Source of the DNA: Eledone cirrhosa
Lineage: Eukaryota
Length of the DNA: 64,000 nt
Assembly: GCA_964016885.1 (NCBI GenBank)
Contig: OZ024754.1
Location: 124,001 to 188,000 of the forward strand
Direction of reading: 5' to 3'
Positions 5,845-63,049 of the stretch are shown piece by piece. The notes under the pieces were generated by a model. The model was not told the origin of the DNA. It worked only from the letters and a program-made list of their open reading frames with translations, and made no database searches. The translations under genes and the position numbers were made by a program. Numbering within the stretch: the stretch's first letter is position 1; the number at the start of each line of letters is the position of its first letter.

Positions 5845-5879
<35 letters not shown>

Positions 5880-5882
<3 letters not shown>

Positions 5883-6052
5883 AAATGAATTGTAGTAAGG
5901 AACCAGATGGACCATAACGCACTAGAGTACTCAATACTTAGGGTAGTAGAGTGGGAAATAGGAAAAAGTATGACCCCGTCGGCAGAGCTCAAGCCGTTTC
6001 TAGCCGTCGAAACGGCTTGAGCTTTGCCGTCGGGGGTCATACTTTTTCCTAT
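5880..6052. mobile_element. PLE-like terminal fragment family A, fold-back copy between (TA)n tracts
   Basis: ~43-bp inverted arms at 5958-6000 / 6009-6052. Homologous to 20750-20873 and 35670-35806. Confidence 0.65.
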
Positions 6053-7611
6053 ATATATATATAAATTCATTTCTGTCTTGAGCCCAGATCTGATCAGGCC
6101 GATGCTTATCCCGTTTATCCTAGTGTGAAGTGGTGGAGAGTACCTGACACTTCTCTGGACAGGACGCCAGTCCATTGCACGGTTAAACTCCCAACTATTG
6201 TTGTTAGTCATTTTCACCTGAGTATACTGTGTTTAAATGCATGTGTGTACGTATGTCTGTGTGTGTTTATCGACCGGTCTCCATTTATATAACAAATGCA
6301 AGTCAGGAAATCTGTATATATATATATGTAGTAGTAGTAGTAGTGAAACACCAACCGCCAGTCAGCAGCCCCTCTATGATAAAGACATGCAACAGTGACT
6401 ATCATGTATGTGAATCACCCAACCTCCTGCAGACACTCTAATACTATATGATCCAATGTTCTTTCTTTGGTAGGGCTGTAAGGTGTGATTTCAGGGACAT
6501 TTACCTGCTATTTCTTGCAGTTTCAGTCCATATTTGATTCAATGTGTGTGGGTGTGCCTGTTTATATGTGTGTATGTGTGTATTTGTATGTGCGTGGAAG
6601 ATTCTGTCTGGCGATTTTTATATATATAACTTAGTTCTGATCATGGGAGTGAGTATGTACTACGAATACCGCGCACACGTGTACACACACACACACACAC
6701 CACACACCACACACACACCACACACACCATACACACCACACACACACACACACACGCGCGTACCTACATCCATCATAAAATAAATTCATAAATCATACAT
6801 ACATATATACAGAGCAAGGAGTTATGTTTCATATATATAACACATCCTCTTCCTCAACATCAATAAAGTAGAATAAAATGAAATAAATTGAAACCAAGTG
6901 AGGTATTACATGGCTGTGTAAGATTAAATGGTTCTAGGTTCGATACCAGTAAGTGGAGCTTTATCGTTTACCAGATCCTCGGGTTGACTCAAACTTGGAG
7001 TGAGAAGTTGGGTAGATAGAAAGTGTTTGGGGACCTGTCGAAGGGATTACTGTTCCTTCTTTTTTTTAGGGGGAGGGGGTAGATTTAATTCATTGCCTGA
7101 CTTTAGCGGAGTTCCTTCTGATGAAATCATTCGGGGATGACCACAGCTTCGATCTAAGTAATAAAAAAAAGAAATAGATAGATAAATAAAATATAAATGA
7201 AACGAAACTCCTAAAATATTGTAGTCAGGTCTTTGACTATTTGTTTTCAATGTTGGGTTTGAATTGGATGGTGAGGGGTGTCGTTATATTCCTTTGTTAT
7301 GGACATGCTTGAGTGAATATAATAGATGGGTTTGGGTGTGATTCACCTTTGCTTTGTCATGGGGGGGACTTAGAGACATAAATTGTGTACAATATTCCCT
7401 GGAGTGAGAAAGGGACACAACGAGGTGGATATATGATTATATATTAAATCTGATGTCATTATATTTAACTTTATTATAGTTAAGATATTCAAACGTGTTA
7501 AAGTGATATATTTATGTAGGAAAAATGGAATATGTCAGTTCGTAATATATTGATATGAACAATGCAAGATAGCTATATGACGCTGTGATTGTAGACTACA
7601 AATGTTAAGGT

Positions 7612-7890
7612 ACGTGGCTTAGTGGTTAGGGTGTTCGGCTTACGATTGTATGGTTGTGAGTTTGATTTCCAGCAGCGCTTTTCTTTAGTCTATTCACCTA
7701 GAAAAGAAAGTTGTACGTGTAATTTAAAGTGGTAGGTCTTGTTATAATCTGTGTCAGGCTAACTTTCCCAGAGACCTACTTTAAAGGTTCTGTTCTGAGA
7801 AACGGTCAGACATTTACGCATTAATTTCATGAGCAGATTGTTCCGCTGATTGAATCAATTGGAAAACTCATCGTCGATACCGATGGAGGT
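7612..7890 (+). mobile_element. tRNA-derived SINE (decayed)
   Basis: A-box-like gtggcttagtggttag and B-box-like gagtttgatttcc. Body resembles 34280-34445, 37455-37770 and 53100-53250. Confidence 0.65.
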
Positions 7891-7902
7891 TCAATACATC
7901 CA

Positions 7903-8247
7903 TCATCAGGTCGAGCTTGCTCGGCTTTCTACGACACGTTTCTTCCATCCATCTCTGTCTCTCATAGCGTTTGCCAGTTCTTCCGCAGTGCATCCACCAG
8001 CATCGTCCTCAAGTTGCTTGACGTATATCTTCTTGGGACGACCAGCGTTTCTTGCTCCATGAGATGGACTCCATAACAACACATCACCTGCTATTTCTTC
8101 CTTGCTGCGCCAACAGTGGCCAGCAAATCAGAGCTGCTGTGGAATCTGTGCTTGTTAATGGCTCTATCACTTGGACGCTAACGTCGAAACTGGAGAAAAA
8201 GCTAGATGGGGGCATACACACGTATGCTCCGTGCTGCTTTAAACGTG
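7903..8247 (-). mobile_element. RTE-clade LINE 3' end with inverted 5' segment and 12-bp TSD
   Basis: Minus 8127->7903 reads FAGHCWRSKEEIAGDVLLWSPSHGARNAGRPKKIYVKQLEDD...MRDRDGWKKRV plus a tga tail. Plus 8128-8247 reads RAAVESVLVNGSITWTLTSKLEKKLDG/.TRMLRAALNV (frameshifted). TSD tcaatacatcca at 7891-7902 and 8248-8259. Confidence 0.9.
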
Positions 8248-9575
8248 TCAATACATCCAATACTATAATTGTATTACGTTGCGGTTATATATTGAACACA
8301 GACCTGTGCTATGGAGATAAATATTTACTTTCAATGGGAAGTTCTAGGACACTACTTACATCATTTCTCATTCTTGTCTCATAAATCTTACACCCGCAAT
8401 AAATCGTTTTAATATGTATAGTACTGTTCACTTTCGATTGGAGACTTCGCAGTCATTTCGTTAACTTTCTTCAATTCATTTCTGAAGAGCCCTCACTAAT
8501 TACTAGTACTGCCTGGATGTATATACGAAACAACTCCTTACTTTCGTTGCCAATGTTTTTTTTTGTTTTTTTTAAAAACTTATTTTTCCTTTGCTAGAAA
8601 AGTAGAAAAGTTCACCTTCAACATCAATTTATTTCACTTTCTTTACTTTGTATTATTTACCATTTAACTAATTTTTCACAATTCACCACTTATTGCCATC
8701 CCCCAGCTCAATTGGTTTACCATTCATCCATTTCTTCTAATGTAAATTTACTGTATATATATATAAGTAAATATGCGTGTGTGTATCAGCATGTAGATAA
8801 ACATAATTGTACATTTACCTCTGTGTACAAGAATACGTTACAATGACAAACACCATTCATTTATATGTTAGGCGCGTATATATAATATATATTGGTAGCT
8901 AGGTGAATGCGCACATACTCAAGTACTTTCGTTGATAGTCAATGGCACAGACGTAAATACGCAGATACACAAACGCACACATACGTCAACACATAAACAG
9001 GTAGTCACCCCACTCCCACCCCTCGTTCTCAGTCACCCTCTCTGATTCTTACACATACAGCTACACACACATATGCACATGATAGATATATTGACACAGT
9101 CGTAATTAGTTCCACAATACAAATGTATTAACGTTGAGTCATAATCACACGGTACGATGTAGTATTTAAGAGAGAAATAACAATGGAGTCAGACTGACAT
9201 ACTGACAGACCGGTAGTCTAGTCGACAGTGAGATTGACACATTGTTGACGGCTCTCACACACATACATTATATATATATATATATATATATATATCTGTG
9301 TGTGTGTGTGTATAATATATATATGTATATAGATATAAATATTTATAAATTCTTTATTATCTTCGCCAATCTCGGCAGGATTTGAACTCAGAATACAGGG
9401 AACAAGAACAATGTGGCACACACATTCTATCCGACGCTCTAACGACTCTGACAATTGTCTCTACTTAAGTTAGAAATTGTTAAAAATACTGTCTCGAAAC
9501 TTGAGGTTGATCCGAGAAGACGTGGTACAGTTTTTGTTGGCGTTAAGCAATTCAGCTTTGAATACCTCCACATGT

Positions 9576-15329: not shown

Positions 15330-15462
15330 AATCAGAATGAAACAGATCTAGTCCTGTAGAAGGCAATTCTTTATATAATAAAGATGCCTATACTCTATCA
15401 ACGTATTGAGTACCTTTTATAACTGTTATTACCACCCGTCACAACTAAGGAATCTACATATT
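15330..15462 (+). mobile_element. PLE-like terminal fragment family B ending in (TA)n
   Basis: aatgaaacagatctagtcctgtag...tactctatcaacgtattgagtacctt is shared with 38797-38900. Confidence 0.6.
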
Positions 15463-15508
15463 ATATATATATATATATAGTTATGTAATAAACAACATAA
15501 GGCAATTA

Positions 15509-15568
15509 TTCCATTTACCAGTGGTTTCTTAAAAGCAAAAAATTTTGCTCTCAATCCTCAGAATGAAA
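15509..15568 (-). ncRNA. Type I hammerhead ribozyme, antisense twin
   Basis: Reverse complement of the left arm. Identical core; stem II reads UUGAGAGC (G-U wobble retained). Confidence 0.8.
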
Positions 15569-15706
15569 AAAATCCTGGTCTGTTTATTGAATTTGGATTT
15601 AAAAAAACTTTTTTTAAAAAACTGTTTTTAAAATCCAAATTTAAAAAAAAAACTTTTTTTAAAAAACTGTTTTTAAAATCCAAATTCAATAAACAGACCA
15701 GGATTT

Positions 15707-15766
15707 TTTCATTCTGAGGATTGAAAGCAAAATTTTTTGCTTTTAAGAAACCACTGGTAAATGGAA
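15707..15766 (+). ncRNA. Type I hammerhead ribozyme (minimal, PLE-type)
   Basis: Stem I UUUCAUU/AAUGGAA; core CUGAGGA (15714-15720); 12-bp stem II UUGAAAGCAAAA/UUUUGCUUUUAA; GAAA; quasi-palindromic stem III ACCACUGGU; GUA site with predicted cleavage after 15759. Confidence 0.85.
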
Positions 15767-15858
15767 TAATTGCCTTATGTTGTTTATTACATAACTATTA
15801 AGCTCTGTTACCTACATAGAGCACTCTTTTTTCCTGGACTTTTCCGACGGAATTACTT

Positions 15859-15909
<51 letters not shown>

Positions 15910-16782: not shown

Positions 16783-17126
16783 CAAAATGAGCATACTCTC
16801 TCTGGCATACATTCATACACACTCAAACGCATGCCTGCATACATACACGCATTCACAGATATAAACACAGACACATTAACATACGCATACTCAGACATAC
16901 GTGTACACACTTGCAGGGTCACTCCCTCATTTACAGACATAAATACACATGCACATAAGCAGATATACATACATACATACACTGACATACACACAAACAC
17001 CCATATACACTTATATTCACATACATACGCACATTAACATACACACAAACACTGATATAGACACATACATACACACACTGACATAGACACATACACATAC
17101 TAACACATACATATATACACACTGAC

Positions 17127-17740
17127 ATGGCGGCTGCCAACTCGTTTTCGAGTACGGCCACTACTTTATATCCATGTAGGAGAACCCCTACCAATGCGCT
17201 GAACGAGTGTGACTTTTTAGTCCAGCCAGCGACTTGAAAACTCTGGTAGAAACACTACACTTGTGACAATTATTGACACATAGTGCTGGGCCCATGGTAC
17301 CATGTGACGACAAGTGCAGAGAGATCTCCAGATATAAAGCAATGCCTGTGCCGTGAAGCTTTTATAGTGAGCAAAGGAACTGCACAAAGCCAGTCCCACT
17401 CTCTTAACCAAGATGATATTTACCAAAAAGAAGAACAAGTCAACATCATTGGATACCATCAGGGTTGCAGGTGTTATATCAGAGTTTTCCTTCTCCTAGA
17501 ATTCTGCCTTGACAAAGGCTAAGGGGTCATCCCTCCCGGTGATTTTGGATGGCCATTGACTCTTAAGAGCTCCTTTGCCCTTTGACAGGTTTTGTTTTTA
17601 GTCCTGCAGGATGTCCAAAGTCACCCTCCTCACCAAGACACATTGGTGGGGTTGCCAGTTTAGTCGCCAACGACCCGACCATGGGACAGGTTGTACTGGG
17701 ATACATGTTACCAGTAGCACCAACTGGTGACCTGACCATA
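17127..17740 (-). mobile_element. Non-autonomous, internally deleted RTE-derived retroelement (copy 1)
   Basis: Near-identical reverse complement of 60743-61388. Carries the RTE 5'UTR-like motif ctaggagaaggaaaactctga. Flanked by CATA-rich repeats. Confidence 0.7.
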
Positions 17741-17918
17741 ATATATACATATATACATACATATATTCACACATATATACACATATATGCATACATATAT
17801 ATATATACATATACATATATATATACATATATATATATATACATATATACATACATATATATATAGATATATACATACATACATGCATACACACATATAC
17901 ATACACACATACACACAC

Positions 17919-20493: not shown

Positions 20494-20530
<37 letters not shown>

Positions 20531-20535
<5 letters not shown>

Positions 20536-20711
20536 TAAAATAACAGATTAAAGTTTAAGCAAAGAATCGCTGCTTTCACCCTTAACGCGATCTTCTGAAA
20601 CTAATTTCAGAAGATTTGCTCTACGGTTTTGCTCTACGGTTCTTATATATTTGATATATATTTATCCTTATCGAGCCCTCTTTGGATTTTAGTCTTCAAA
20701 TTTATTATTAT

Positions 20712-20716
<5 letters not shown>
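20531..20716. mobile_element. PLE-like terminal fragment family C, rearranged, between (TA)n tracts
   Basis: Inverted part, then short hairpin atcttctgaaa/tttcagaagat, then a jump to a duplicated ttgctctacggtt and the forward 3' end. Homologous to 22143-22377 and 33110-33428. Confidence 0.7.
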
Positions 20717-20749
<33 letters not shown>

Positions 20750-20751
<2 letters not shown>

Positions 20752-20873
20752 CGAAGGAAGAGTGGTAAGGAACCAGATGGACCATAACGCACCAGAGTAC
20801 TCAATACTCAGTACGTCCAGAAATAGCCGTCGAAACGGCTTGAGCTCTGCCGTCGGGGTCAAACATTTTCCTA
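20750..20873. mobile_element. PLE-like family A, inverted plus forward pieces
   Basis: taaggaaccagatggaccataacgc (reverse complement of the 35760-35790 region) joined to agccgtcgaaacggcttgagctctgccgtcgg. Confidence 0.7.
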
Positions 20874-20896
20874 TATTTTATATTGATAATAATAAT

Positions 20897-21081
20897 TGTT
20901 TCTACTTTAGGCACAAGGCCAGCAATTACCCAGTGCATTACTGGTACTTTATTTTATCGACCCCGTAAGGATGAAAGGCAAAGTCAACTTCGGCTGGATT
21001 TGAACTCAGATCTTAAAGGGACGTAACTATGCTGGAAAGCATGACGTCCGACCCTCTACCGATACTGCCAATCCACCGCCC
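20897..21081 (-). mobile_element. Young full-length Octopus-type SINE with 18-bp TSD
   Basis: Head gggcggtggattggcagtatcggtag and B-box gagttcaaatcc on minus. TSD tatattgataataataat at 20879-20896 and 21082-21099. Confidence 0.9.
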
Positions 21082-21734
21082 TATATTGATAATAATAATG
21101 CAACTAGTAAAATCAATATATTTTATAGAATTGTTTCTCTTAACGTTCGTGCTAGAAGCCCCTTATATATTTGGTAATGTGTAGAAAGAGCTAAACACCT
21201 AATGTTATCAAAATAAATGAAAACATAAATACATAAGAAAATCTAACTTAGAACACATTCTTATGAGGACCTTTAAGAGGATTAGACATATTGTATAAAT
21301 AAAAAGAGAAAGAGGTTACACATTTTTTACTAAGAAATTTACAAGAATGTACAGTATAGAATAATTATTGGCAACGTAAATAAATAATCAGTTGAATTAG
21401 AAGCGGTTGAAAAACAAGTTGTTATAAAATTAACTGCAGTAACATCAATTAAATAACGAATGCTTAATACATTGATGGTTAAATAGGAGGTAGCTAATTT
21501 AATAATTAAATAATTATAATAACTGGAGGGACAAAAAATTTAGTCTAGTTTTAAACAATTAATTGATGAAATTAAAAGGTGGAATTCTAAGTGAAATCAA
21601 AGTTTTCTGTTTAATGACTACAATCTGAGAAGCTGTGACTGGTAGTGGAAATATATTGTTGCTATTAGTGACAAGGAAATTGACGTGGAACATATTTTCT
21701 ATCAAGCTGAAATCAGAAATATATTATATAAAAA

Positions 21735-33063: not shown

Positions 33064-33109
<46 letters not shown>

Positions 33110-33114
<5 letters not shown>

Positions 33115-33421
33115 ATAATAATAAATTTGAAGACTAAAATCCAAAGAGGGCTCGATAAGGATAAATATATATCAAATATATAAGAACCGTAGAGCAAATA
33201 TTTGCTTTCACCGCTCCAAATAATGACCTATTATCTTCGTTTTTTTCCGATCTTTCAGCCAGGGAACGTTTACACGAACCAAGGTATCGTCTTCCTGTCT
33301 TCCTTCGGCTGCAACGTTTTTCGAAATATTTACTTCTGCGTTCACAGATTGATTATTTTAGTTTCAGAAAATCCCGTTAAGGGTGAAAGCAGCGATTCTT
33401 TGCTTAAAATTTAATCTGTTA

Positions 33422-33428
<7 letters not shown>
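33110..33428. mobile_element. PLE-like family C, inverted 3' end plus forward segment, between (TA)n tracts
   Basis: 33110-33203 matches 22143-22236. 33360-33428 matches 22308-22376. Confidence 0.75.
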
Positions 33429-33512
<84 letters not shown>

Positions 33513-35669: not shown

Positions 35670-35803
35670 CCAGAATTAGCCGTCGAAACGGCTTGAGCTC
35701 TGCCGTCGGAGTCATACTTGTTCCTATTACCCAATCTGCTACCCTAAGTATTGAGTACTTTGGTGCGTTATGGTCTATCTGGTTCCTTACCACATTTCCT
35801 CCG

Positions 35804-35806
<3 letters not shown>
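35670..35806 (+). mobile_element. PLE-like family A, linear 3' end between (TA)n tracts
   Basis: agccgtcgaaacggcttgagctc...ggttccttaccac...gtta(TA)n gives the colinear order of the pieces seen at 5.9 and 20.8 kb. Confidence 0.7.
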
Positions 35807-35863
<57 letters not shown>

Positions 35864-38744: not shown

Positions 38745-38915
38745 TATATACAGGACTAGAACTGTTTCATTCGTGAGAAATCATTGATTTCTTACCAATG
38801 AAACAGTTCTAGTTCTGTAGAAGCTCTTCTATATTAACACTTTTATACTCTGCTATGTATTGAGTACCTTACCAACTGTGGTTACCTCCGATTCAACCCG
38901 GAATAACTTATCTTA
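38745..38915. mobile_element. PLE-like family B fold-back copy ending in (TA)n
   Basis: Hairpin caggactagaactgtttcatt..gagaaatca / tgatttctt..aatgaaacagttctagttctg (38751-38818). Confidence 0.7.
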
Positions 38916-38929
38916 TATATATGTATATG

Positions 38930-38992
<63 letters not shown>

Positions 38993-38994
<2 letters not shown>

Positions 38995-39050
38995 TTATTA
39001 AAATAACAGATTAAAGTTTAAGCAAAGAATCGCTTTTATTATTATTACTA
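38993..39050. mobile_element. Minimal family C fragment (inverted piece fused to terminal ttattattattacta)
   Basis: ttattaaaataacagattaaagtttaagcaaagaatcgct plus the 3' terminus, between TA tracts. Confidence 0.65.
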
Positions 39051-55062: not shown

Positions 55063-55570
55063 TTTGAGTCTCAGTCATTGATGTTAGTTAACTGGAAAGT
55101 TTGTTGAAATGAATATCAAGCCACTACCTGCAGCCTCAGATATTCAGGACGTATCGGAGAGTTCTTGCTGTTCCCAGCAAGCATGCCTTTTGAAGTGTTG
55201 AAGTGTTCCAAAAAGCGGGGCGGGGCCAATTTTCTTTAACCATCCCTGGAAACCTTTTGAGATAGTACCTAGTGCGCCTATGACAATCGGGACCACTTTG
55301 ACTTCATGGCAGTTCCAAATCCTTTTTACCTCCCACTTTAAGTCCTGGTATCGGTTAATTTTCTCCCTCTCCTTCTCTTTCACTCTCGTGTCGAATGGGC
55401 AGGCCACATCCACAATCAGGCACGATTTTTTTTCCTTGTCCAAAACCACCAGGTCAGGTCTATTGTGTTCCAGTTTCTTGTCCGTCTGTATCCTAAAATC
55501 CCCAAATCCCATAGCACCTTCACCTGATCGTTTTCTATTACCGACTCTGGCTTATGCTCATAACACTTCT
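55061..55570 (-). mobile_element. R4/Dong-like RLE non-LTR retrotransposon, 5'-truncated, in (TAA)n
   Basis: YEHKPESVIENDQVKVLWD/FRIQTDKKLEHNRPDLVVLDKEKKSCLIVDVACPFD..EKINRYQDL..VVPIVIGALG shows RLE (RPD..D, KxxxY) motifs with frameshifts. (TAA)n at 55033-55060 and 55574-55635. Confidence 0.9.
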
Positions 55571-60445: not shown

Positions 60446-60670
60446 TAAATGAAATAAGAACCTTATTCTATCATTTTCTTCAGTTAGATATGCTCACCAT
60501 TTACTTACCCTAGCTTTCTCTATGTTTTACCTTAAATATATCTCTCACATCTTCCACCTATAATTACATAAACACATTGAGCTTTCTATAAAACTATTTG
60601 ACAGTCATATACTCAAATATGTAGCCTCTCTACATTCAAAAAGAGTTATATTTTTACCATATATATGTAA

Positions 60671-60701
<31 letters not shown>

Positions 60702-60742
60702 TGTATGTATGTATGTATGTATGTATGTATGTATGTATGTAT

Positions 60743-61388
60743 GAATACATGTTACCAGTTGGTGCTACTGGTAACATGTATTCCAGTACAACCTGTTCCC
60801 ATGGTCGGGTCGTTGGCGACTAAACTGGCAACCCCACCAAGGTTTCTCGGTGAGGAGGGTGACTTTGGACATCCTGCAGGACTAAAAACAAAACCTGTCA
60901 AAGGGCAAAGGAGCTCTTAAGAGTCGATGGCCATTGACTCTTAAGAGCTCCTTTGCCCTTTGCCATCCAAAATCACCGAGAGAGATGACTCTTAGCCTTT
61001 GTCAAGACAGAATTCTAGGAGAAGGAAAACTCTGATATAACACCTGCAACCCTGATGGTATCCAACGATGTTGACTTGTTCTTCTTTTTGGTAAATATCA
61101 TCTTGGTTAAGAGAGTGGGACTGGCTTTGTGTAGTGCCTTTGCTCACTATAAAAGCTTCACGGCACAGGCATTGCTTTGTATCTGGAGATCTCTCTGCAC
61201 TTGTCGTCACATGGTACCATGGGCCCAGCACTGTGTGTCAATAATTGTCACAAGTGTAGTGTTTGTACCAGAGTTTTCAAGTCGCTGACTGGACTAAAAA
61301 GTCACACTCGTTCAGCGCATCGGTAGGGGTTCTCCTACATGGATATAAAGTAGTGGCCGTACTCGAAAACGAGTTGGCAGCCACCATG
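60743..61388 (+). mobile_element. Non-autonomous RTE-derived retroelement (copy 2) within (TATG)n
   Basis: (TATG)n on both sides (60672-60742 and 61386-61485). Reverse complement of 17127-17740 with two extra fold-backs. Confidence 0.75.
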
Positions 61389-63049
61389 TATGTATGTATG
61401 TATGTATGTATGTATGTATGTATGTATGTATGTATGTATGTATGTATGTATGTATGTATGTATGTATGTATGTATGTATGTATGTCTAACTTGGCAGAAA
61501 GGGCGTCCATAATACCGTGAATTTAGAAATTCAGACCATTTATCTTACAAAGTAAAGAACACATTAAGTAATGTAGTCCCACGTCTCACTGTCGACAGTC
61601 AGGGATAAAAGATCTTTTCACAGAGATGTCTTTGGTCAGACTAAGGTTCTGGTTAAACAACAACAATGAGGACAAGAACCAACGTGTGTAGAAGTAGGGG
61701 TGGGTTGAGATTTTGTTTTTATTCCCGAGCCAGTGCTAATTGATCATCATTAGGATCGAGGACATTACAGCCGTGACCATCTCGTCTTTTTAAAGGAATG
61801 CTGTAGTGGTGGTGATGTTTATGGTGTTGTTATTCAATGGTGATAATAGTGGTAGTATTGGTGGTGGTGGTAGTGGTGGTGTTTAGAGTGGTGGTGGTAG
61901 TGTTTATGGTGTTGTTATTCAGTGGTGATAATAGTGGTAGTGGTGGTGGTGGTGGTGGGGGTGGTGTTTATGGTGTTGTTATTCAGTGGTGATAATAGTG
62001 GTAGTGGTGGTGGTGGTGGTGGTAGTAAGTTAAAAGAAGACGATATATAAGGTAGAAGTTGTAAACAGGAATGTAGGTCGTCTGCTGTTTGTCAGAATGT
62101 GGATCAAAGAGAAAATGGAGGCAACGCCGCCACTTTCTTGCATCAAAATGCATTGCACTGCACACTGACGTAAACAATGACTCAACCGTGCACATACCGA
62201 CAGATGTCAGTGCAGGGGAGTGGTTCTGACAGTGAGATAGGACGCTGATGATGATGAGGGTGCCGCGTGGTGCGTTTGTGGCGTTGTTGTTGTTGTTATT
62301 GTTGTTGTTAGGGCTGGTGGAGCTGATGTTTTGGTGATGAGATGGTGGTGGTGATGTTGGTGGTGGTGCGATGGTGGAGGTGGTGTTGTTGTTGGTGGTG
62401 GTGGTGGTGGAGGTGATGTTTTGGTGGTGCGATGGTGGTGGTAGTGTTGTTGGTGGTGGTGGTGGTGGTGGAGGTGATGTTTTGGTGGTGCGATGGTGGT
62501 GGTAGTGTTGGTGTTGGTGGAGGTGGTGTTGTTGGTGGTGGTGGTGGAGGTGATGTTTTGGTGGTGCGAGGGTGGTGGTGTTGGTGGTTGTGCTGGTAGT
62601 GGTGGTGATGTTGGTGGTGGTGCGATGGTGGGGCGGTGTTGTTGGTGGTGCGATGGTGCTGGTGCTGGTGGAGGTGCTGGTAGTGGTGGTGGTGCTGGTG
62701 GCAGGATGTGAGTTTGGCTACTATATCTAGCAAGTCCAGACTCCCTTGTTTGGTAATGGTAATAATGGCTGCTACACTCTTCCTTTTGTTGTTGTTCAGT
62801 CCCAGGACAGGCCTGGTGAAGCAGACATTATCAAAAGCACTCCAGCCATAGTTGTATACGGCATACCTGATGCCATAGTTTCTGCTGTAAATACAGAGGT
62901 TGGAGTTCTCTCCCCTGGTGGTGATACCGTGTTTTTCTTTTAAATCCTAGCAGGCGTCCTTCAGGGTAACACATTGCCAACGTATCTTTTCATAATCGTT
63001 CTTGACTATGTCATAGGGGAAGCTTTTGTTAATGGAAAGTGAGACGTAT

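What the first reader, a model, noticed from the sequence alone, without database searches (positions are those of the whole stretch)
15477..15862. Palindromic cassette carrying two hammerhead ribozymes, one per strand
Seen: ~125-bp inverted arms between (TA)n tracts. Each arm holds a complete type I HHR: CUGAGGA, 12-bp stem II, GAAA, palindromic stem III and a GUA site. The single stem II difference keeps pairing (A-U vs G-U). The spacer has a ~44-bp direct duplication, implying repeated template switching. Established: PLE pLTRs carry minimal HHRs with palindromic stem III that work as dimers, and PLE insertions often have an inverted 5' pLTR. Inference: a transcript from either strand contains a sense ribozyme plus its near-perfect antisense. 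It could either self-cleave or collapse into a long dsRNA hairpin, a possible cleavage-versus-silencing switch.
Basis: partly seen in the sequence, partly recalled or inferred. Interest (0 to 1): 0.75.

Follow-up and report, generated by a model that had tools for sequence, protein, structure and literature searches.

The report
Head-to-head remnant of Hydra-type retrotransposon
This palindrome is one of many back-to-back pairs of ribozyme-bearing ends left by a young, abundant Penelope-like jumping gene in this genome, likely made when both ends of one DNA cut were primed from two fixed start points; it is predicted to fold into a hairpin rather than act as a cleavage-versus-silencing switch.

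Summary
The palindrome and both hammerhead motifs are real. It is not a stand-alone cassette. It is the ribozyme-bearing 3' end of a young Hydra-clade Penelope-like element (3,813 exact motif copies), joined head-to-head to an inverted, tail-less copy of itself in (TA)n. Sixteen such short pairs occur among the first 100 motif places. In 50 of 51 pairs exactly one arm carries the 62-nt tail. Arms share lineage variants, yet either arm can be the longer one, which favours priming of both ends of one cut from two fixed RNA start sites; fold-back is the rival. The switch idea is not supported: on both strands the antisense arm is transcribed first, and the ribozyme helices have near-zero predicted probability. 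Opposite-strand hammerhead pairs, inverted pLTRs and tails are published, and this scan noted two-ended insertions before on other DNA of this genome. The fresh lead lies in the parent: a second hammerhead about 1.1-1.2 kb upstream keeps its catalytic core but has a near-fixed G at the cleavage position, and is predicted to act as a built-in dimer partner that cuts only the downstream site. No RNA data were available.

The parts
15462..15476 (.). left (TA)n target tract; its last bases overlap the arm end by a 3-4 base microhomology
   Evidence: same end in other copies
15477..15607 (-). inverted, tail-less, 5'-truncated pLTR copy ending at the second fixed 3' end (equivalent to 15798)
   Evidence: loose ends pile up at 15797-15798 in public contigs
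15509..15568 (-). type I hammerhead motif of the inverted arm (core 15561-15555, predicted cut after 15516)
15601..15690 (.). junction of the two arms at the A/T-rich, self-complementary T5A4 hot spot, with a private 45-bp tandem duplication and about 60 extra bases
   Evidence: spacer seen in public contigs
15670..15798 (+). sense, 5'-truncated pLTR of the Hydra-clade element
15707..15766 (+). type I hammerhead motif HHR-A: stem I 15707-15713/15760-15766, core 15714-15720, stem II 15721-15746, GAAA 15747-15750, stem III 15750-15758, predicted cut after 15759
   Evidence: position 7 varies while the other core bases are conserved
15799..15860 (+). 62-nt tail, present on one arm only; in long copies it runs on into the ORF leader
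15861..15906 (.). one CA unit and right (TA)n target tract

Best explanation
The cassette is a truncated insertion of a young Hydra-clade Penelope-like retrotransposon: two copies of its ribozyme-bearing 3' end joined head-to-head in a (TA)n tract, likely produced when both ends of one staggered DNA cut were primed on RNA from one source copy at two fixed start sites. Shown: family, copy number, parent ORF, one tailed plus one tail-less arm, shared variants, junction hot spot. Inferred: the GIY-YIG nuclease would cut both strands in (TA)n; one 3' end would prime at the tail end (15860) and the other 62 nt further in (15798), each helped by a short TA-like microhomology; both cDNAs would often stop in the A/T tract 70-90 nt upstream of the GAAA box and be joined through its self-complementary T/A run, here with slippage that left the 45-bp duplication. 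The remnant has no ORF. Any read-through transcript is predicted to form a long hairpin, not an active ribozyme.
For: 3,813 exact copies of a 28-mer of the ribozyme, 0 in the reversed control; top 40 matches 99-100% identical. 29 of 30 best ORF-start loci have the pLTR or part of its tail directly upstream in sense. 3 of 20 fetched long copies have an unbroken 707-711 aa ORF with RT and nuclease motifs. 16 head-to-head pairs under 700 bp and 10 at 0.7-10 kb among the first 100 places, against 1 tail-to-tail and 1 tandem pair. 50 of 51 pairs have exactly one tailed arm; the other was a mispairing with a variant ribozyme. Arms agree in subfamily 49 of 49 and at core position 7 in 42 of 43 (shuffle means 29 and 28); also in the 28 pairs not selected by likeness to the window, 27 of 27 and 22 of 23. 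Of 12 long pairs the tail-less arm is longer in 5, the tailed arm in 4, 2 are near equal, 1 unresolved (read by eye), so neither arm is simply a copy of the other. Tail-less ends also stand without a partner within 1.5 kb (12 of 30 motif places). One event, held twice (L055, L059), shows a 16-bp target duplication around the pair. Two internal start sites bounding the tail and extension of both strands were shown in vitro for a Poseidon element (PMC11167929).
Against: Several junctions are symmetric with a few extra bases at the centre (L007, L097, L101) and one 5-kb pair is a 99.3% palindrome (L114), as fold-back would give. Shared private variants fit one source RNA or one cDNA equally. Unequal arms could come from later central deletions. 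The stem II loop differs between arms in 12 of 27 pairs of one subfamily, unexplained. A target duplication could be read in only one event. No biochemistry or RNA for this family. The in vitro precedent is from another clade.
Confidence: 0.7

Rival explanations
1. Same element, but the inverted arm is made by fold-back: the first cDNA snaps back at a short palindrome and is copied (or an antisense RNA self-primes, as proposed for rotifer Penelopes), and the return strand joins the target at the TA-like site 15798.
For: Many short junctions centre on the self-complementary T/A run or are symmetric with a short loop; arms share private variants (and one core change in two places 1.2 kb apart); self-priming is the published proposal (PMC3846280, passages).
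Against: The tail-less arm is longer by about 0.45-1.5 kb in L112, L113 and L115; partnerless tail-less ends are common; the outer end is nearly fixed, as a start site would be.
Confidence: 0.2
2. One reading: a transcript of the cassette either self-cleaves or collapses to dsRNA, and this is a selected regulatory function.
For: Both cores are intact in this copy; a near-perfect hairpin is predicted.
Against: Antisense precedes sense on both strands; ribozyme stems at probability 0.0 in all prefixes. Monomer stem III pair probability 0.12. Minimal PLE hammerheads were inactive as monomers and weak as dimers (PMC4209133), and the Poseidon one needed its protein (PMC11167929). The layout is a routine by-product with variable arms.
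Confidence: 0.04
3. The palindrome is a non-autonomous element of its own (MITE-like or retrozyme) that moves as a unit.
For: Hundreds of similar cassettes are extrapolated; inverted ends.
Against: Junctions differ between copies, including the private duplication here; ends are unequal (tail on one side only); arms are pieces of the autonomous element; no tandem monomer array around the cassette.
Confidence: 0.04
4. Assembly or long-read chimera.
For: Perfect palindromes are a known long-read artefact (own knowledge); no public contig spans the whole cassette.
Against: Fixed biological ends in 50 of 51 pairs, different flanks on the two sides, arm differences, and the unique spacer in public contigs.
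Confidence: 0.02

Closest known systems
Hydra-clade Penelope-like elements, especially Hydra-1_Obim of Octopus bimaculoides (Craig et al. 2021, PMC8557442)
   Same: RWK, DKT, CxCx5C linker, no CCHH in the nuclease, CxxC and CxH near its end, (TA)n target, type I hammerhead in the 3' end. The supplement's Hydra-1_Obim protein start resembles this ORF and its stem III has the same 4-bp palindrome with a 1-nt loop (compared by eye).
   Different: Unit about 4 kb with a microsatellite-rich 3' region against under 3 kb; two hammerheads per 3' end; longer stem II without the extra base before it; thousands of near-identical copies. Not the same family by its ribozyme sequence.
Inverted 5'-truncated pLTR plus tail arrangement of EN+ PLEs (PMC8557442 Fig. 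2 legend; PMC3846280)
   Same: Head-to-head copies, tail on one end only, palindromic junctions, target duplication.
   Different: Tail is 62 nt instead of 30-40; here counted over 51 pairs.
Minimal hammerheads of metazoan PLEs (Cervera and de la Pena 2014, PMC4209133)
   Same: Long helix II, short palindromic helix III, dimer requirement; the paper reports dual motifs 100-700 bp apart on opposite strands in Schistosoma mansoni.
   Different: U-A instead of G-C at 10.1-11.1; no unpaired base before helix II; a tandem partner with G17 is not described in the parts read.
Poseidon PAc of Anolis carolinensis (Frangieh et al. 2024, PMC11167929)
   Same: Two internal RT start sites bounding a tail; AT-rich target; both strands cut and extended.
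   Different: Other clade; there the ribozyme and tail overlap the ORF start, here the ATG lies about 120 nt beyond the tail.
Animal non-LTR retrozymes (bioRxiv 10.64898/2026.07.22.740005)
   Same: Type I hammerhead of PLE pLTR type in a non-coding repeat.
   Different: No tandem monomers; this is a truncated piece of a coding element.

Membership tests
Hydra-clade PLE (parent element) | single ORF with RT and C-terminal GIY-YIG-type nuclease | tested here: met
   707-711 aa unbroken ORFs in 3 of 20 copies with YRDD and the two short nuclease motifs, read by eye; 1,336 homologues over the whole length, unnamed. Pfam scan of fragments gave no RT or GIY-YIG hit.
Hydra-clade PLE (parent element) | RWK motif and DKT in place of DKG | tested here: met
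   both present; definition from PMC8557442 section 11
Hydra-clade PLE (parent element) | CxCx5C linker, CCHH absent, CxxC and CxH near the nuclease end | tested here: met
   present in 2 of the 3 unbroken ORFs, degraded in the third
Hydra-clade PLE (parent element) | insertion into (TA)n and a hammerhead in the 3' end | tested here: met
Hydra-clade PLE (parent element) | length generally under 3 kb | tested here: not met
   HHR-A lies about 3.5-3.9 kb after the ATG in most long copies; a descriptive trait, not a diagnostic one
Hydra-clade PLE (parent element) | placement in the Hydra clade in an RT tree | not tested
   reference proteins were seen only in the paper's supplement and were not put into a tree
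Type I hammerhead ribozyme | core CUGANGA, GAAA, UH with three helices | tested here: met
   hammerhead fold -11.9 against MFE -12.4 kcal/mol
Type I hammerhead ribozyme | match to a curated covariance model | tested here: not met
   no Rfam hammerhead hit
Type I hammerhead ribozyme | conservation pattern across copies (position 7 free, rest fixed) | tested here: met
   position 7 takes G, T, A and C, other box positions change in single copies only; one search likewise for HHR-B
Type I hammerhead ribozyme | self-cleavage at the predicted site | not testable with these tools
   needs an assay; genomic truncation test inconclusive
Non-LTR retrozyme | tandem monomers each with a hammerhead | tested here: not met
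   no such array at the locus; arms are parts of a coding element

The most novel reading that the evidence does not exclude
The parent element carries its own dimer partner: an upstream hammerhead (HHR-B), 1.1-1.2 kb before HHR-A, keeps its catalytic boxes but has G at the cleavage position, so the two fold into an asymmetric double hammerhead in one RNA that cuts only once, at HHR-A. This would be a natural enzyme-substrate ribozyme pair and would explain how a dimer-dependent PLE ribozyme works without a tandem copy. Together with hundreds of very young one-tail pairs, the family would let two-ended priming be tested directly.
Probability: 0.3. Interest if true: 0.65.

Novelty: new member of a known kind. 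Interest (0 to 1): 0.36.

Why it matters
The cassette itself is an ordinary product of a known kind of insertion. Its value is as a sample: how PLEs make inverted copies and what their hammerheads do are stated as open in PMC8557442, and this young family gives countable footprints (one tail per pair, same-source arms, either arm longer) and copies with unbroken ORFs. The A/B ribozyme pair gives a cheap, sharp test of the dimer model. If such hairpins are transcribed inside host RNAs they would be substrates for dsRNA editing or silencing, which was not tested.

Tried and rejected
Rfam scans found no hammerhead, only hairpin and microsatellite noise. Pfam scan of five ORF fragments gave nothing relevant. 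RNA search: no RNA holder listed, which says nothing on expression. An ORF on the opposite strand upstream of locus L009 first looked like the parent; it is another family without this ribozyme at its 3' end. Footprint of self-cleavage: copies starting within about 3 bases of the cut site numbered 39, against 23 in a window 7 bases upstream and 115 in a window 5 bases downstream; the downstream count looks inflated by small deletions and chance A/T matches, and of 30 cut-site loci inspected several were internal deletions: inconclusive. Selection on the HHR-B core: no shared variant in 11 core positions while about 16 of 107 columns have one; by rough hand estimate this has a chance near 0.15, so it is not shown. 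A scan of all fetched loci and the window for other families with a G17 partner found none, on few other families. Target duplications were unreadable in all but one event because of (TA)n. No host exon was recognised near the cassette in a crude ORF scan. One search crashed before its dimer part (redone); parts A and C had script errors (redone). Paper searches for twin priming in Penelope elements, for a non-cleavable GUG dimer partner and for octopus Hydra palindromes found no description; the library lacks most subscription journals and Repbase.

Full report
Observation. The arms, both hammerhead motifs, the single stem II substitution and the spacer duplication are in the sequence. Corrections: stem II folds as 11 bp plus a 4-nt loop, the arms also differ by one base in a homopolymer, the duplication is 45 bp, and the pair next to the core is U-A. 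Rfam has no hit for the ribozyme. Contigs of two public runs of one sample match the unique spacer without differences, which argues against an artefact, though no piece spans the cassette.

It is a repeat end. The right arm plus the 62 bases after it (15670-15860) matched 1,429 first-look candidates in the own genome; the 40 scored were 99-100% identical. A 28-mer across the cut site occurs 3,813 times exactly, with 0 for the reversed control. Among the first 100 listed places (first 117 Mb of one contig) 16 pairs are head-to-head within 700 bp and 10 within 0.7-10 kb, against one tail-to-tail and one tandem pair. Extrapolated, about 600 short palindromes of this type exist; that figure is an estimate from one stretch.

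The parent. Locus L036 shows a partial tandem: nuclease end, 3' region, ribozyme B, microsatellite-rich spacer, ribozyme A, tail, then a new ORF. In 29 of the 30 best ORF-start loci the pLTR or part of its tail lies directly upstream in sense. Of 20 long copies fetched, 3 have an unbroken ORF of 707-711 aa. Read by eye it has RWK, DKT, YRDD, a CxCx5C linker, a nuclease without the CCHH cysteines and terminal CxxC and CxH, the features given for the Hydra clade (PMC8557442 section 11). The supplement lists Hydra-1_Obim with a similar protein start and the same palindromic stem III (by eye). No tree was built, so membership rests on motifs. That the host is an octopod is my inference from this likeness and was not determined.

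How the palindrome likely forms. In 50 of 51 head-to-head pairs exactly one arm carries the tail and the other stops at the base equivalent to 15798 (or the matching short AAT run of a second subfamily) and runs into (TA)n. Of these 50 pairs 22 came from a search biased to the window's right arm; 28 did not. Arms agree in subfamily (49 of 49 scorable) and at core position 7 (42 of 43), far above shuffles, also in the unbiased 28 (27 of 27, 22 of 23), so both arms come from one source. Short junctions cluster 70-90 bases upstream of the GAAA box at a self-complementary T/A run; the window's junction is there too, with about 60 extra bases that include the duplication. In 12 long pairs the tail-less arm is longer in 5, the tailed arm in 4, 2 are near equal and 1 is unresolved. 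A copy made by folding back on the tailed cDNA cannot be longer than it, and the tailed arm cannot be copied from the tail-less one. Tail-less ends without a partner within 1.5 kb are common (12 of the first 30 places). One event has a readable 16-bp target duplication. With the in vitro result that a Poseidon protein cuts and extends both target strands and starts at two internal RNA sites bounding the tail (PMC11167929, parts 1-2 of 4 read), the simplest account is priming of both ends of one cut. This step is inferred. Against it: symmetric junctions with short central loops, a 5-kb 99.3% palindrome, and the chance that later deletions made arms unequal; self-priming is the published proposal (PMC3846280, passages).

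The switch. In a head-to-head pair each strand carries the antisense arm first. Folding growing transcripts gave probability 0.0 for ribozyme stems I and II in all 8 prefixes. A transcript starting in the spacer at 15640 kept stem II but stem I had probability 0.011. As a monomer the stem III closing pair has probability 0.12. Published minimal PLE hammerheads were inactive as monomers and weak as dimers (PMC4209133, parts 1-2 of 4 read), and that paper already reports dual motifs 100-700 bp apart on opposite strands. These are equilibrium predictions, not kinetics, but they leave little room for a switch. No RNA run was listed.

The fresh lead. Long copies hold a second hammerhead, B, 1,084-1,187 bases upstream of A in the three copies measured. 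With B's stem II marker, 202 places have G at the cleavage position and 29 have A; 27 of the 29 have a stem II one base from type A, so most are probably A copies. Among B copies not selected by that base, 26 have GUG, 1 CUG, none GUA. A G at this position is treated as non-cleavable (CUG controls in PMC11875169, passages; the NUH rule is otherwise own knowledge). B keeps its first box: 93 of the first 100 of 233 listed are intact, with position 7 as A 55, G 26, T 11, C 1, and 7 broken by six different changes (counted by hand). Co-folding natural B and A pieces of L159 gave a lowest-energy form with the stem III duplex and both stems I crossed, B's core open on A's GUA and the other core closed by the G pairing; for two further copies only energies were printed, with the drawn double hammerhead within 3.4 kcal/mol of the minimum. 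Against: B looks like an old tail-less copy captured in the 3' microsatellite, its G may be neutral or merely stop a harmful cut, stem II of most B copies has a mismatch, the selection test was not significant, and no other family with such a partner was found. Searches found no description. The window's cassette lacks B.

Papers seen: PMC4209133 and PMC11167929, first two of four parts; PMC8557442, passages, section 11 and supplement search hits; PMC3846280 and PMC11875169, passages; bioRxiv 10.64898/2026.07.22.740005, first of five parts, supplements closed and possibly relevant to the retrozyme comparison. Others only as search listings.

Earlier notes of this scan reached the same two-ended reading for retrozyme arrays and a Hydra palindrome elsewhere in this genome. 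I had recorded my reading before seeing them; they are not independent support.

Verdict. Observation confirmed; interpretation partly supported; a new member of a known kind; interest 0.36, carried by the testable A/B ribozyme pair and the countable insertion footprints rather than by the cassette.

Noticed in passing
L036 719-820 and 5407-5508; L159, L160, L164: Second hammerhead (B) in the parent's 3' region with an intact core and a near-fixed G at the cleavage position; predicted one-way dimer partner of ribozyme A.
   Followed up: partly
tailed ends across loci L001-L154: Of 65 tailed ends not continuing into the ORF, 19 repeat the last four bases and 40 have 1-8 CA units before (TA)n: looks like stuttering at priming, as a telomerase-like RT might do, and might feed microsatellite growth.
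   Followed up: partly
window 15730-15737 and all copies: The stem II loop is hypervariable and differs between the two arms in 12 of 27 pairs of the A4-T6 subfamily but in 0 of 13 of the subfamily whose loop has CC.
   Followed up: partly
window about 15330-15450: Truncated end of another high-copy hammerhead-bearing repeat (GAAA box and stem III, first box missing here; complete in L013 and in 4 fetched copies); the cassette sits in its terminal (TA)n.
   Followed up: partly
L031 6026-8287 (-): 754-aa open frame of a different Hydra-like family, inserted next to a copy of this element.
   Followed up: no
L036 about 6000-8800: A third PLE family nested in the spacer between B and A, with a long AT-rich 3' region and a short-stem hammerhead at 8774.
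   Followed up: no
L114 560-5566: 5-kb palindrome of this element at 99.3% identity, with both ribozymes and part of the ORF in each arm.
   Followed up: partly
window 5845-6052, 20494-21082, 33076-33498, 35685-35841, 38749-39034: Several copies of other short (TA)n-flanked repeats, some folded back on themselves.
   Followed up: no
window 17019-17822 and 60659-61485: About 830-base repeat in opposite orientation, 88% identical.
   Followed up: no
window 55147-55551 (-): Open frame fragment resembling the restriction-like nuclease end of a non-LTR retrotransposon (recalled motif, not tested).
   Followed up: no
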